Below are positions 4,125-13,384 of a stretch of DNA of 64,000 nucleotides, one piece after another. The stretch spans positions 358,623-422,622 of the forward strand of contig JBHLKM010000001.1 of the NCBI GenBank assembly GCA_048886685.1, given 5' to 3'. This DNA is from Candidatus Hodarchaeota archaeon (GTDB lineage Archaea > Asgardarchaeota > Lokiarchaeia > Sigyniarchaeales > SOKP01). The notes under the pieces are model-generated. The model had not been told where the DNA came from. It searched no databases and was given only the letters and a program-made list of their open reading frames with translations. Within the stretch, counting starts at the first letter, position 1, and each line of letters opens with the position of its first letter. Made by a program: the position numbers and the translations under genes.

Positions 4125-4847
4125 TTGCTCAAGAAAAAGCTTTATATACATCAAAACATTCCATATGTTTTTAATTGGAATAAGGAGCACCATAAACAGA
4201 AATTTTCTCAAATAACAGCTAATCGGATTGAATTGAATAAACTTAAGGAATATTTTGGGTTAGTTTATAAAGGTATTATACCAAATAACTTATTTAATTC
4301 TGGAATTTTTCCTAGAGTTTCACAATTTAAAATAAAAGGGATAAAAACTGTTTTTATTAGAAGCTTTAGTAAAAAATTAATTAGATCTGGAAAGATACAA
4401 TATTATGATTCAAATTCTAAGTTATCTCAATATGTTCAAAGAGTTTTTGACAATTATAAAGTAAATAAAATTAATAGAATCCCTGGTCACGAACCAGTTT
4501 TAAAGAACATTCTCATTAAAGACAAAGATTCAATAGCAATTGAAGTTCCCATTTGGAATAAAATAAAAGGTAGGGTGATTACGGGACATATTGATTTACT
4601 CCAAGTTAAAAATGATTTAATAAAAGTAATTGATTACAAACCAGAAGGAAATTTTTTACTCTCATTACCTCAAGTAGCGATGTATGGACATTTATTGAAA
4701 TCTAAATTAAACATTGAAAATATTAAATGTATTTCTTTCAATAAGGATGAGGCTTGGGAATATGATCCTAGTATTTTGGTGGCAGAAATAAAGGATTATT
4801 TGATTTTTCATCAAATAAATCAAAGACCATGGGAAAATTATTTATAA
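4125..4847 (+). CDS. PD-(D/E)XK nuclease (RecB/Cas4-like superfamily)
   Basis: IAIEVP...ITGHIDLL...VIDYKP...QVAMY (E, D, DxK and QxxxY motifs). Confidence 0.8.
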   Translation: MLKKKLYIHQNIPYVFNWNKEHHKQKFSQITANRIELNKLKEYFGLVYKGIIPNNLFNSGIFPRVSQFKIKGIKTVFIRSFSKKLIRSGKIQYYDSNSKLSQYVQRVFDNYKVNKINRIPGHEPVLKNILIKDKDSIAIEVPIWNKIKGRVITGHIDLLQVKNDLIKVIDYKPEGNFLLSLPQVAMYGHLLKSKLNIENIKCISFNKDEAWEYDPSILVAEIKDYLIFHQINQRPWENYL

Positions 4848-10026: not shown

Positions 10027-10431
10027 ATACAATTCGGATCTGATTTAGGAATAAACCAAGAAGATATCGAGAAAATTAGTCCTCAAATTACATTTATAAC
10101 TTCTAATGCAGATATAGAAGCTATAGCGCTCGTAAGTTCTGAAGGTTATCAAATAGCATTTTCAGCGTTACCCCAATATCATGTTGATGGTGATCAATTT
10201 TGTGGACTTGCTAGTGCCTTATTAATGACTGGGAGATCAACAATTCAAACTTTATTTCAAGAGGATTTAAGTGAGGTTATTGTAAGAGCAGAAAATGGCT
10301 ATATTGTAATTACCAATGCCGGACGTTTAGTGATTGTTTGTGCTGGAACGATAATAGATACGTTGATGAAAACTGTAAAAGTTATGCGAATCGCTGCTAA
10401 AAATTTATATAAAGTATTCGAAAATAGGTAA
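10027..10431 (+). CDS. roadblock/LC7 (MglB-like) domain protein; true start probably upstream of the track ORF (ATA at 10027)
   Basis: In-frame extension gives ...DIEAIALVSSEGYQIAF...CGLASALLMTG...SEVIVRAENGYIVI, a complete roadblock fold; no ATG/GTG/TTG between the stop at 10012 and 10225; AGGTGG at 10015-10020. Confidence 0.8.
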   Translation: MQFGSDLGINQEDIEKISPQITFITSNADIEAIALVSSEGYQIAFSALPQYHVDGDQFCGLASALLMTGRSTIQTLFQEDLSEVIVRAENGYIVITNAGRLVIVCAGTIIDTLMKTVKVMRIAAKNLYKVFENR

Positions 10432-10562
10432 AACTTTTGTATTACTTTTTCTAAATAATTTAAATGAAAATACGTTTGACATTTCTATAAATCAGATTTT
10501 CATTAATAAATAATATCAAAAGAAAATAGTTAAGTTTTTAAACTATACAATAAAATAACCAC

Positions 10563-10570
10563 TATATTAA
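10563..10570 (+). promoter_or_regulatory. candidate TATA box for the trp leader/trpB2 transcript
   Basis: TATATTAA centred about 26 nt upstream of the leader ATG at 10593, consistent with a leaderless transcript. Confidence 0.45.
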
Positions 10571-10592
10571 ATTTTCTATTCAATAATCAATC

Positions 10593-10649
10593 ATGACACT
10601 TGCTAAAAACCTTGCTTGGTGTTGGCAGTGGCCTTGGCGTTGGCGATAA
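10593..10649 (+). CDS. Trp-rich leader peptide MTLAKNLAWCWQWPWRWR (trpL-like uORF)
   Basis: ATG ACA CTT GCT AAA AAC CTT GCT TGG TGT TGG CAG TGG CCT TGG CGT TGG CGA TAA; 5 TGG in alternate codons, GC-rich island about 150 nt upstream of trpB2. Confidence 0.85.
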   Translation: MTLAKNLAWCWQWPWRWR

Positions 10650-10733
10650 CGCCTTTACATTGGATAAAATTTAATTAAAACAAACTTTTTTTCATACCTT
10701 AGTTTTTACTAAGATTAAAAAGTCCTTTTTAAT
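10636..10733 (+). promoter_or_regulatory. candidate attenuator/terminator structures downstream of the Trp codons
   Basis: GGCGTT/AACGCC (10636-10653) competing with GGCG-ATAA-CGCC (10642-10653); T7 tract 10686-10692; hairpins CTTAGT-TTTT-ACTAAG (10698-10713) and ATTAAAAA-GTCC-TTTTTAAT (10714-10733). Confidence 0.5.
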
Positions 10734-10798
10734 TTGCATTAAACTATTGAATTCCGATATTTTAATGACACACATTTAATGTATGAAAATAATTATAT

Positions 10799-12214
10799 GT
10801 GGTAAATAAAATGGTAGATTATTTCAAAGCACGGATTTTATTAGAACCAAATGAGGTTCCTAAGGAATGGGTAAATATTGTGCCGGATTTGCCTGCGCCT
10901 ATGACGCCTTTAGTCAACCCTATGGATGGGAAACCTGCCCCGCCTGAAATGGCTTTTGCAATTTTTCCAAAAGAATGTGTGTTGCAGGAAGTATCTCAAG
11001 AAGAAACGATACCCATCCCTAATGAGGTAAGAGAGATATTCGTAAGTACTTACAGACCAACTCCTCTTCATCGCGCTTTAAGGTTGGAAAAACAGTTAGG
11101 AATAGAAGGAGATGATATAAAAATATTCTATAAGAATGAATCCGTATCTCCTACAGGATCACATAAGCCTAATACTGCTATTGCTCAAGCATATTATGCC
11201 AAGAAGGATGGATTAGAAGAGTTAGTCACTGAAACTGGTGCTGGCCAATGGGGTTCAGGTTTAGCGTATGGATGTAATTTATTTGATATCAAATGTACAG
11301 TTTATATGGTGAGAGCAAGTTTCTTCCAAAAACCAGGTAGAAAAATTTTGATGAGGTCGTATAATGCCGAAGTTCATGCTAGTCCTTCAAACTTAACCGA
11401 ATCAGGAAAAATGTTTGTAGAAAAAGATCCAGATCACCCAGGTAGTCTAGGAATTGCGATTTCTGAAGCAGTTGAACACAGTTTAGGCAAGGAGAAGAGT
11501 AGATATTCCTTAGGAAGCGTAGTAAATTTTGTACTACTGCATCAAACAATTGTTGGACAAGAAGCAAAGATCCAATTAGAAAAGGTAGGGATTAAAAAGC
11601 CTGATGTTGTAATTGGATGTATGGGGGGTGGATCTAACTTCGCTGGTTTAATGATTCCATTCGCTAAGGATAAATTGAATGGAATTAGTCCAGAAATTGA
11701 AATAATAGGAGTAGAACCACGTGCATGTCCTAGCGTATGCAAAGGTGAGTATCGATGGGATTTTGGAGATACTTCAATGAAAGGGCCAATTGTAAAAATG
11801 CACACTCTCGGTCATACCTTTATTCCAAGCCCGATTCATGCTGGTGGATTAAGGTACCATGGAATTGCTCCAATTGTTTCAATATTATACAACAATAAAG
11901 TAATGTCAGCTGTAATGCATCATCAAACTGAAATTATTGAAGCAGCATTACAATTTGCACAAGCAGAAGGAATTCTTGCTGCTCCCGAAACAGCACATGC
12001 AGTTAAGGAAGCAATCGATCAAGCTTTAAAAGCCAAGGAGGAGAAAGAAAAGAAAGTCATTCTATTTAATTTTAGCGGTCATGGATTTTTTGATTTATTA
12101 GCTTATAAAAGTTACATGACGGGTGAATTAGAAGATTACGAGTTACCGACAGAAGAAATCCAAAGAGCCTTAGCTTCCGACGAAATGCCAAAAATTGATG
12201 AGTCTCAATTCTAA
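10799..12214 (+). CDS. trpB2: tryptophan synthase beta chain, TrpB2 type (PLP enzyme); start may be ATG 10811
   Basis: YRPTPLHRA, GSHKPNTA (PLP Lys), TETGAGQWG, GGGSN, IHAGGLRYHG, APETAHA, NFSGHG. Confidence 0.95.
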   Translation: MVNKMVDYFKARILLEPNEVPKEWVNIVPDLPAPMTPLVNPMDGKPAPPEMAFAIFPKECVLQEVSQEETIPIPNEVREIFVSTYRPTPLHRALRLEKQLGIEGDDIKIFYKNESVSPTGSHKPNTAIAQAYYAKKDGLEELVTETGAGQWGSGLAYGCNLFDIKCTVYMVRASFFQKPGRKILMRSYNAEVHASPSNLTESGKMFVEKDPDHPGSLGIAISEAVEHSLGKEKSRYSLGSVVNFVLLHQTIVGQEAKIQLEKVGIKKPDVVIGCMGGGSNFAGLMIPFAKDKLNGISPEIEIIGVEPRACPSVCKGEYRWDFGDTSMKGPIVKMHTLGHTFIPSPIHAGGLRYHGIAPIVSILYNNKVMSAVMHHQTEIIEAALQFAQAEGILAAPETAHAVKEAIDQALKAKEEKEKKVILFNFSGHGFFDLLAYKSYMTGELEDYELPTEEIQRALASDEMPKIDESQF

Positions 12215-12316: not shown

Positions 12317-13384
12317 TTGAACCCCTTTTCATTTATTATTATTTGTTTCTTCTATTTTTATGGTTTTATCCTTTTCTATATCACTTATCTAACAAAAAAA
12401 AAAAGCGAGAAAAGAGCTTTTATCAATAATCTCGCAAACTCTATTATACTCATAACTTCTATTACAATTAATTTATTAATTATCTATTATAGAAATCCGA
12501 GTAATACTAGTTTTATTGCTTTCCCTTTTGATATTTTAATGCTTATATTTATTTTTTTATTTATCCCAGTTTTTTCTTTTTTTGTAATTAAGGAAAAGAG
12601 AAAAATTGAAAATGGCAGAATACCTCATGAAGAATTTAAATCAAAATCGAAAATTTTACCATTAAAATATGATATATATAGAAAAATGACTCATTTAGTT
12701 GTATTGGGGATAATATTTTTCTATTTTACCTTAGGTTTTTTAGTTCAGAATGTTTTTAAATATATTTCAGAACTGTTACCTAACTTTTTTATTGAAATGT
12801 TTGATATGGGTGATGATATAATGGTTTTTACTCAAAATTTAGTAGTTTTTTTAGTTGGCGTCTCTTTAATTGGATTATTAACAGCAGATTTTACTAGAGT
12901 CCTTCAGCCAAAATATTATCCTTTAAAACCAGTAAATCAAATACTTAAAGAAAAAGAATTATATATGCGATTAGGACCTCATATTTCAATGAGTATTGGT
13001 TGTTTTTCTATAATCCTTTTATATGGTCTTATTCAACCAGTAGGGCCTCTGATAATCTGTACTTCAATGGCCATGGCTGTTTTTGGAGATACAGCATCGA
13101 ATTTATTTGGTCGAACGTTAGGAAAAAGAAAAATTCGCGAAACGGAAAAAACTTATGAAGGTTTACTTGCTGGAGTCATAATTGCATTCATCTCTGGATT
13201 TATAGTATTAATAATCCTTAAAGATTTTTATTCACCTAAGAACTTTGGATTAATTTTTTTACCATTATTAGGAGCTATAATCCTTGGTTTTATAGATTAC
13301 CTAGATCTTGAAATAGATGATAATTTATCTTATAATTTCATTCTATCAACTGTTTTATTTTTTTGTTCACTTCTTCTCTTCTAA
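12317..13384 (+). CDS. dolichol/phytol kinase-like CTP-dependent membrane kinase
   Basis: RKMTHL, GDTASNLFGRTLG, KTYEG, DDNL motifs; multi-TM. Confidence 0.8.
   Translation: MNPFSFIIICFFYFYGFILFYITYLTKKKSEKRAFINNLANSIILITSITINLLIIYYRNPSNTSFIAFPFDILMLIFIFLFIPVFSFFVIKEKRKIENGRIPHEEFKSKSKILPLKYDIYRKMTHLVVLGIIFFYFTLGFLVQNVFKYISELLPNFFIEMFDMGDDIMVFTQNLVVFLVGVSLIGLLTADFTRVLQPKYYPLKPVNQILKEKELYMRLGPHISMSIGCFSIILLYGLIQPVGPLIICTSMAMAVFGDTASNLFGRTLGKRKIRETEKTYEGLLAGVIIAFISGFIVLIILKDFYSPKNFGLIFLPLLGAIILGFIDYLDLEIDDNLSYNFILSTVLFFCSLLLF

What the first reader, a model, noticed from the sequence alone, without database searches (positions are those of the whole stretch)
10560..10811. Trp-rich leader peptide upstream of trpB2: candidate ribosome-dependent tryptophan attenuator in an Asgard archaeon
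Seen: an 18-codon ORF (10593-10649), MTLAKNLAWCWQWPWRWR, with five TGG codons in strict alternation, forming a GC-rich island in very AT-rich DNA about 150 nt before the tryptophan synthase beta (TrpB2) gene. A TATA-like box lies about 26 nt upstream of its ATG. The last Trp codons and the stop overlap two mutually exclusive stems that share CGCC (GGCGTT/AACGCC versus GGCG-ATAA-CGCC), followed by a T7 tract (10686-10692) and two more hairpins (10698-10733). Established: Trp-codon leader peptides (trpL) control bacterial trp genes by attenuation; archaeal RNA polymerase terminates at U-tracts or via FttA on untranslated RNA; archaeal trp regulation is mainly known through the TrpY repressor. 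Inference: ribosome stalling at Trp codons under Trp limitation lets transcription or translation proceed into trpB2. I know of no such bacterial-style leader described in Asgard archaea, but cannot confirm novelty without a search.
Basis: partly seen in the sequence, partly recalled or inferred. Interest (0 to 1): 0.93.

Follow-up and report, generated by a model that had tools for sequence, protein, structure and literature searches.

The report
Tryptophan-sensing leader peptide, Asgard archaeon
A tiny 18-codon gene with five tryptophan codons, folded inside a conserved RNA structure, sits in front of the only tryptophan-making gene found in this Asgard archaeon, with matching leucine, isoleucine and cysteine versions in front of the matching genes; it looks like the ribosome-based amino-acid sensors of bacteria, for which I found no published archaeal example.

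Summary
The uORF at 10593-10649 is real and under selection. A W-x-W uORF precedes trpB2 in 69 of 76 distinct family-level loci, in other Lokiarchaeia families and some other Asgard families, and independently precedes the trpD-first trp operon. ATG and stop lie in the Trp frame (39/42 and 38/42 loci, against at most 2/42 in other frames). The same genome has conserved Leu-, Ile- and Cys-run uORFs before leuA, leuS, ileS and a cysK-like gene. TrpY was not found in this order; FttA is present.

The proposed TATA is the 5' arm of a covarying helix that encloses the uORF. The two 'exclusive' stems are registers of one stop-codon hairpin. I found no antiterminator, no hairpin abutting the U7 tract, and no predicted switch at the trpB2 ribosome-binding site.

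Verdict: a ribosome-stalling Trp sensor (about 0.88), most likely acting by premature termination at the U-rich tract (about 0.55, inferred). It works like bacterial leader-peptide attenuation but is not a classical trpL attenuator. This scan reported the same element earlier in other genomes. No functional data exist.

The parts
10529..10542 (+). Conserved BRE-TATA promoter element (TTTTTAAA 10535-10542); transcription start inferred near 10562-10566
   Evidence: Conserved in the family alignment; motif 49-66 nt upstream of the uORF ATG in 36 of 42 representatives. The start site itself is inferred.
10566..10584 (+).
   Evidence: 17 bp with 10659-10675 in the MFE of 10560-10700. Cognate duplex -7.9 vs non-cognate -5.0 kcal/mol over 42 homologs, with the upstream control flat. 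In the MFE of 36/42.
10593..10649 (+). Leader uORF, 18 codons, Trp at codons 9, 11, 13, 15 and 17
   Evidence: Homologs in 69/76 family loci; frame test.
10597..10630 (+). Internal helix P2 (10597-10606 with 10622-10630): early codons pair with the W-Q-W codons
   Evidence: MFE; predicted in 34/42 homologs but with no cognate advantage by rank. Weakly supported.
10636..10653 (+). Stop-codon hairpin P1 (10636-10642 with 10647-10653, GCGA loop), covering the last Trp codon and the stop
   Evidence: 89% of cells paired, 10 cells with two-sided changes, 0/500 shuffles.
10659..10675 (+). 3' arm of P0, starting at the conserved CAnnGG motif
10678..10705 (+). Pyrimidine/U-rich tract including U7 (10686-10692): candidate FttA/aCPSF1 or intrinsic termination site
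   Evidence: U fraction 0.51-0.64 over this interval in 42 homologs vs 0.41 after ordinary stops. Function inferred.
10734..10773 (+). Conserved hairpin H3 with an A-N-A bulge and an AWUUC loop; apical part retained in three lineages that lost the uORF; role unknown
   Evidence: 11 of 14 pairs with two-sided changes, 0/500 shuffles, G-U substitutions; top covarying pair 10734:10773; L073, L075, L104.
10799..10805 (+). Shine-Dalgarno-like GUGGUAA of trpB2
   Evidence: 16S 3' end GGAUCACCUCCU; GGU conserved upstream of the ATG.
10811..12214 (+). Stand-alone trpB2 (TrpB-like PLP enzyme), the regulated gene
   Evidence: trpA, trpC and trpD not found in the genome (100% complete, 8% contaminated).

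Best explanation
This is a cognate-codon leader-peptide sensor of charged tRNA-Trp. SHOWN by sequence comparison: a promoter about 55 nt upstream, a uORF kept in the Trp frame, a covarying RNA fold (P0 enclosing the uORF, P1 over the last Trp codon and the stop), a U-rich tract 30-55 nt after the stop, and trpB2 with its own SD. INFERRED: with ample Trp the ribosome runs through the 18 codons and leaves. The leader closes into the P0/P1/P2 junction, which buries its own start region and leaves ribosome-free U-rich RNA just behind the polymerase. FttA/aCPSF1 (or the U-tract alone) then ends transcription before trpB2; the published FttA geometry with U7 at -36..-30 would put the cut near U10699. 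When Trp-tRNA is scarce the ribosome stalls on the Trp codons, P1 and P2 cannot form, and the polymerase passes the tract, so trpB2 (probably an indole-salvage Trp synthase in a genome without trpA/C/D) is expressed. My odds: sensor about 0.88; termination or co-transcriptional cleavage as the output about 0.55 overall. How the stall blocks termination is not shown.
For: W-x-W uORF in all 30 first trpB2 loci, in 69/76 distinct family loci, in other families and orders of the class and in three other Asgard families. Frame test: ATG 39/42 vs 0 and 1; stop 38/42 vs 0 and 2. Compensating indels keep the last TGG in frame in L091/092/094/095. The same type of uORF precedes trpD, first gene of the full trp operon, in 10 of 11 loci with enough upstream DNA. 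Cognate controls: Leu runs before leuA 30/30 and leuS 8/8, Ile runs before ileS in 3/3 close orthologs, Cys clusters before a cysK-like gene 2/2. Spacer codons are rare ones (CAG 64 vs CAA 19; Arg only CGN) against trpB2 usage (CAA 693 vs CAG 105), so they are constrained as RNA, not as peptide. Covariation of P0, P1 and H3. TrpY-like genes in only 5/159 class genomes, none in this order; the two family-f6 trpB2 loci examined have TrpY and no leader. FttA/aCPSF1 is encoded. RNA-library contigs of a relative join the Trp codons to trpB2 (one study, DNA not excluded).
Against: No covarying antiterminator. Modelled ribosome positions do not change the accessibility of the U-rich tract. With a 27-nt footprint (PMC7261190), a ribosome stalled on the Trp codons ends about 30-55 nt upstream of U7, so simple steric exclusion of FttA is not evident. 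P0 ends 10 nt before U7 and the gap varies among homologs. P0 is not statistically supported outside this family. leuA leaders have a strong stop hairpin but no U-tract after it. The window's uORF has no SD. Seven family loci lack the leader. Homologs are related, so counts overstate independence. There are no expression data with and without Trp.
Confidence: 0.55

Rival explanations
1. Same Trp sensor, but the output is mRNA stability. After the ribosome leaves, the closed leader and exposed U-rich tract are cut post-transcriptionally (aCPSF1 or RNase J-like), and a stalled ribosome protects the message; H3 may be a 5' stability hairpin. This would not need transcription-translation coupling.
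For: H3 is strongly conserved and partly retained where the uORF is lost. FttA is itself a U-preferring endo/exonuclease (PMC11616081). No terminator-antiterminator pair was found. DNA and ribosomes were reported spatially separated in Loki cells (PMC8776820).
Against: The leader also heads seven-gene trp operons, where early termination is the economical control (inference). The U-rich tract sits where post-stop terminators sit.
Confidence: 0.17
2. Same Trp sensor, but the output is translation initiation of trpB2 (SD sequestration relieved by the stalled ribosome), as proposed for the actinobacterial LEU element.
For: The trpB2 SD/start region is predicted to be largely paired (about 0.4 unpaired). 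Some leuA leaders can pair Leu codons with the SD in MFE folds. Precedent in PMC1262725.
Against: No cognate pairing of any leader segment with the SD region, and no change of SD accessibility with ribosome position, for Trp leaders or between stall and stop for Leu/Ile/Cys leaders. The stop-to-gene distance ranges from about 50 to 430 nt.
Confidence: 0.12
3. Arrest peptide (TnaC or fungal AAP type): free Trp or indole in the exit tunnel arrests the ribosome through the WxWxW peptide and so represses or induces trpB2.
For: Aromatic, basic and proline-containing C-terminus next to the stop.
Against: Peptide length (12-25 codons in this family, 55-70 in others), Trp number (2-6) and spacer residues vary. 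C-terminal frameshifts are tolerated (L005, L009, L072). Spacers are constrained at codon level. Parallel Leu/Ile/Cys runs fit codon sensing.
Confidence: 0.05
4. An untranslated structured RNA or protein-binding element (TGGCNN hexamer repeat; TRAP-like or riboswitch-like) whose open frame is incidental.
For: The repeat is conserved at nucleotide level and pairs within the fold. The window's uORF has no SD.
Against: Start and stop are confined to the Trp frame. Indels restore the frame. The codon identity tracks the amino acid handled by the downstream gene in four classes.
Confidence: 0.05
5. A small functional protein unrelated to trpB2 control, or chance.
For: None beyond the existence of archaeal small proteins.
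Against: Linked to two different Trp loci and lost in some lineages while trpB2 stays. The peptide is not conserved outside the W-x repeat. It is the top hit of the genome-wide scan.
Confidence: 0.02

Closest known systems
Enterobacterial trpL attenuator (Rfam Trp_leader RF00513) and predicted classical trp/trpS/leuS attenuators of Actinobacteria (PMC1262725)
   Same: Short leader ORF with Trp codons near its end, a hairpin overlapping those codons and the stop, upstream of Trp synthesis genes; parallel leaders for Leu, Ile and Cys genes and for aminoacyl-tRNA synthetases.
   Different: Archaeal host and TATA promoter. Trp codons alternate (TGGCNN repeat) instead of being tandem. No 2:3 antiterminator and no GC hairpin abutting the U-tract. 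A 5'UTR helix encloses the whole uORF. No Rfam match.
Leader-peptide attenuators without intrinsic terminators: mycobacterial poly-Cys leaders (PMC1262725; bioRxiv 10.1101/834739, title and abstract start only) and Rho-dependent E. coli tna
   Same: Cognate codons next to the stop, no conserved terminator hairpin, pyrimidine-rich tract downstream; factor-dependent termination is the natural candidate.
   Different: The candidate factor is FttA/aCPSF1, not Rho. TnaC senses excess free Trp through its peptide and controls a catabolic operon (own knowledge).
TrpY repressor (Methanothermobacter) and Tar/TK0271 activator (Thermococcus), PMC6737238
   Same: Trp-responsive control of archaeal trp genes. 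TrpY-family genes lie divergent from trpB2 in several Asgard families that lack the leader.
   Different: Those are DNA-binding proteins acting at initiation. TrpY was not found in this genome or order; Tar was not searched.
Eukaryotic regulatory uORFs (GCN4/ATF4, fungal arginine attenuator peptide; own knowledge)
   Same: A uORF couples amino-acid status to a downstream gene.
   Different: Those rely on cap-dependent scanning. Here the downstream gene has its own SD and the sensor is a run of cognate codons.

Membership tests
Classical trpL-type transcription attenuator | Short leader ORF with multiple Trp codons upstream of Trp synthesis genes | tested here: met
   (alternating rather than tandem codons).
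Classical trpL-type transcription attenuator | Protector hairpin (1:2) overlapping the regulatory codons | tested here: met
   P1 covaries; P2 predicted only.
Classical trpL-type transcription attenuator | Alternative antiterminator helix (2:3) | tested here: not met
   No cognate advantage for post-stop pairing with downstream segments; no ribosome-dependent refolding.
Classical trpL-type transcription attenuator | Intrinsic terminator: stable hairpin directly followed by a U-tract | tested here: not met
   P0 ends 10 nt before U7, variable in homologs; H3 is followed by A-rich sequence.
Classical trpL-type transcription attenuator | Match to Rfam Trp_leader models | tested here: not met
   No relevant match up to E=10.
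Classical trpL-type transcription attenuator | Trp-tRNA-dependent premature termination | not testable with these tools
   Only assembled RNA contigs of a relative were available; they cannot show ends or levels.
Factor-dependent leader-peptide attenuator (poly-Cys / tna-like geometry) | Cognate codons at the uORF end with no conserved intrinsic terminator | tested here: met
Factor-dependent leader-peptide attenuator (poly-Cys / tna-like geometry) | Pyrimidine-rich loading tract after the stop and a termination factor in the genome | tested here: met
   Tract. FttA/aCPSF1 over cut-off.
Factor-dependent leader-peptide attenuator (poly-Cys / tna-like geometry) | Stalled ribosome physically covers or refolds the loading site | tested here: inconclusive
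   The footprint ends about 30-55 nt upstream of U7 and there is no predicted accessibility change; folding models ignore kinetics.
TnaC/AAP-type arrest peptide | Conserved peptide sequence and spacing | tested here: not met
Translational attenuator (SD sequestration) | Leader segment pairs with the downstream SD and is released by the stalled ribosome | tested here: not met
TrpY regulon | TrpY-family gene in the genome | tested here: not met
   Not found with this query in G000 or in any of the 152 genomes of the order searched.

The most novel reading that the evidence does not exclude
Asgard archaea run a genome-wide set of ribosome-stalling leader peptides (Trp, Leu, Ile, Cys and probably more) that control premature transcription termination through FttA/aCPSF1, the homologue of eukaryotic CPSF73, using an RNA clamp instead of a terminator-antiterminator pair. 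This would be the first transcription attenuation in archaea and genetic evidence that ribosomes reach nascent RNA in Lokiarchaeia.
Probability: 0.45. Interest if true: 0.95.

Novelty: new variant of a known kind. Interest (0 to 1): 0.86.

Why it matters
[quoted passage not shown] A conserved codon-sensing leader in the closest prokaryotic relatives of eukaryotes is therefore unexpected. [quoted passage not shown] DNA and ribosome signals were reported spatially separated there (PMC8776820), and a review names coupling in these cells as a key question (PMC10732040). If the output is termination, ribosomes must reach nascent RNA within about 100 nt of the promoter; if it is decay or translation, this is a prokaryote-style sensor working without coupling. 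Cultured Lokiarchaeia appear to carry the element (genome identity inferred from size, from memory), so it can be tested.

Tried and rejected
- Rfam scan to E=10: nothing relevant.
- Second stem register as an on/off switch: rejected; 68% paired and lineage-specific.
- Hand-spotted 2:3 pairing (ACAU/AUGU) that looked compensatory in close relatives: no cognate advantage over 42 representatives.
- CAnnGG pairing with the H3 loop: no covariation.
- Ribosome-footprint folding: no switch at the U-tract or the SD.
- P0 outside this family: no better than control.
- Column-wise mutual information on the full alignment was mostly phylogenetic noise apart from H3 and P1.
- An internal promoter before H3 (a TTTTTAAA-like run) lacks a purine-rich BRE and would start inside H3; rejected by inspection.
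- Avoidance of WW because TGGTGG mimics an SD: rejected, since WW and WC occur.
- RNA runs: only assembled contigs. Their end at L036:1844 lies 30 nt from the first difference with the near-identical trpD leader, so it is a k-mer graph junction, not an RNA end. The uncovered promoter side proves nothing.
- Distant IleRS genes (about 40% identity) have no Ile leader.
- The FttA paper PMC7103508 was not held.
- No structure or complex prediction was run, as no claim needs it.

Full report
Observation. The ORF is as described: ATG 10593, stop ending 10649, 18 codons with Trp at every second codon from 9 to 17. Five TGG codons in this spacing occur once in the 4.4 Mb genome. In a blind scan of 2798 intergenic upstream ORFs for end-clustered amino acids it ranks first. 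The downstream gene is TrpB2, starting at 10811. trpA, trpC and trpD were not found in the genome, so TrpB2 stands alone; indole salvage is its likely role (own knowledge of the family). Relatives are named Promethearchaeota, i.e. Lokiarchaeia.

Conservation and selection for translation. All 30 first trpB2 loci had a Trp-rich uORF upstream. Among 76 distinct loci of this family, 69 have it, with 2-6 Trp codons and an in-frame ATG, GTG or TTG. In 42 representatives below 80% identity, an open ATG lies in the Trp frame in 39 (other frames 0 and 1) and a stop follows within four codons in 38 (0 and 2). In one clade a deletion and an insertion inside the repeat keep the last TGG in frame. The leader recurs in other families and orders of the class and in three other Asgard families, with lengths from 12 to about 70 codons. 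These genomes are related, so the counts are not independent events.

Independent contexts. The same type of uORF precedes trpD, first gene of the complete trp operon, in 10 of the 11 such loci with enough upstream DNA. The genome-wide scan also turned up Leu-rich uORFs before leuA and leuS, a Cys-rich one before a cysteine-synthase-like gene and, on inspection, an Ile-rich one before ileS. These are conserved: leuA 30/30, leuS 8/8, ileS 3/3 close orthologs, cysK-like 2/2. The repeated codon always names the amino acid handled by the next gene, which is the signature of tRNA-charging sensors. The known archaeal regulator TrpY was found in only 5 of 159 class genomes, all in two families outside this order. 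The two family-f6 trpB2 loci examined have a divergent TrpY gene and no leader; one f5 locus has both.

RNA anatomy. The conserved promoter is TTTTTAAA at 10535-10542, not the element 26 nt before the ATG, which puts the start near 10562-10566 (inferred). Across 42 homologs each 5' UTR pairs better with its own post-stop segment (-7.9 kcal/mol) than with others (-5.0), while an untranscribed control shows no such effect. Inside P0 lie P1 (10636-10653), supported by compensatory changes, and a predicted P2. After P0 comes a U-rich tract (U 0.51-0.64 against 0.41 after ordinary stops) containing U7. Further on is a strongly covarying hairpin H3 (10734-10773) with a three-base bulge, partly kept in lineages that lost the uORF. 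Spacer codons between the Trp codons are rare codons, so they serve the RNA rather than the peptide.

What is missing. No antiterminator covaries, no hairpin abuts the U-tract, and placing a 27-nt ribosome footprint (PMC7261190) at any Trp codon or at the stop changes neither U-tract nor SD accessibility. The Leu, Ile and Cys leaders likewise show no SD switch between stall and stop. The element is therefore not a classical trpL attenuator, and SD sequestration is unsupported.

Mechanism. I commit to premature termination as the most likely output (about 0.55), with the sensor itself at about 0.88. The genome encodes FttA/aCPSF1. FttA engages 36 nt of nascent RNA, prefers U at -23 and U-rich RNA at -30 to -36, and is hypothesised to be excluded by a coupled ribosome (PMC11616081). 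With U7 in the -36..-30 slot, position -23 is U10699. In the model, a ribosome that finishes the uORF lets the leader close and bury its own start, leaving naked U-rich RNA; a ribosome stalled on Trp codons keeps the leader open until the polymerase has passed. The weak step is that the stalled ribosome ends about 30-55 nt short of U7, so how it prevents termination is not shown. mRNA decay (0.17) and translational control (0.12) remain. RNA-library contigs from a related genome join the Trp codons to trpB2, consistent with one transcript, but they come from one study, cannot exclude DNA and give no ends or levels.

Comparison and novelty. It works like bacterial leader-peptide attenuation and is closest in geometry to the terminator-less poly-Cys leaders of mycobacteria (PMC1262725). 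It fails membership of the classical family on the antiterminator, the terminator and the Rfam match. A 2021 paper states that no transcription attenuation is known in archaea (PMC8448881), described archaeal trp control is by TrpY or Tar (PMC6737238), and my searches for an archaeal case returned none. Earlier agents of this scan reported the same Trp element, and the Leu and Ile leaders, in other genomes. These are not independent support; their word 'junction' led me to look for P0, which I then tested.

Verdict. A real, conserved, probably translated Trp sensor, and a new variant of a known kind in a domain where the kind is unreported. [quoted passage not shown] Interest 0.86.

Noticed in passing
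window 10027-10431 (+): The upstream Roadblock/LC7 gene (PF03259) appears to start at ATA 10027 behind a GGTG SD. Homologs have ATA 19, ATT 10, ATC 4, TTG 9, GTG 3, ATG 7, TTA 1 at this position: a conserved non-AUG start.
   Followed up: partly
L149 (G000:C3, leuA), L150 (G000:C9, leuS), L153 (G000:C12, ileS), L151 (G000:C14, cysK-like): Cognate Leu-, Leu-, Ile- and Cys-rich leader ORFs with structure starting at the stop, conserved in relatives. The ileS leader has a 9-bp 5'UTR helix like P0. The leuS leader can pair its post-stop segment either with the Leu codons or with a downstream segment.
   Followed up: partly
L043, L044, L056, L058, L109, L119, L121: 'Long' Trp leaders of 55-70 codons share a conserved start region, apparently a CTG start in family f7, overlapped by an out-of-frame mini-ORF of 3-7 codons containing one Trp codon.
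   Followed up: no
L053 10114-10221 and 10549-10620 (-): Two Trp-rich uORFs in tandem upstream of one trp operon.
   Followed up: no
L073, L075, L104; L080, L083, L085, L087: Loss of the uORF: the first group keeps part of hairpin H3, the second has a short UTR with neither. These are natural comparisons for the role of H3.
   Followed up: partly
L110-L112, L117, L120, L123, L124, L128, L041, L042, L045: TrpY-family gene divergent from trpB2 in several Asgard families; L045 has both TrpY and a leader (family confirmed for L041, L045, L110).
   Followed up: partly
L113, L115, L116, L125: A short ORF resembling an HTH protein lies directly upstream of trpB2 in families f10/f11, with no leader; family not checked.
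   Followed up: no
L036 and L059 (genome G054): The trpB2 and trpD leaders share a 36-nt identical stretch, suggesting duplication or conversion of the leader between loci.
   Followed up: partly
window 12317-13384 (+): 355-aa membrane protein after trpB2 with no Pfam or NCBIfam hit; a T10 run follows the trpB2 stop, so it is probably a separate transcript.
   Followed up: no
window 4125-4847 (+): 240-aa ORF with a PD-(D/E)xK-like motif by eye and no Pfam hit.
   Followed up: no
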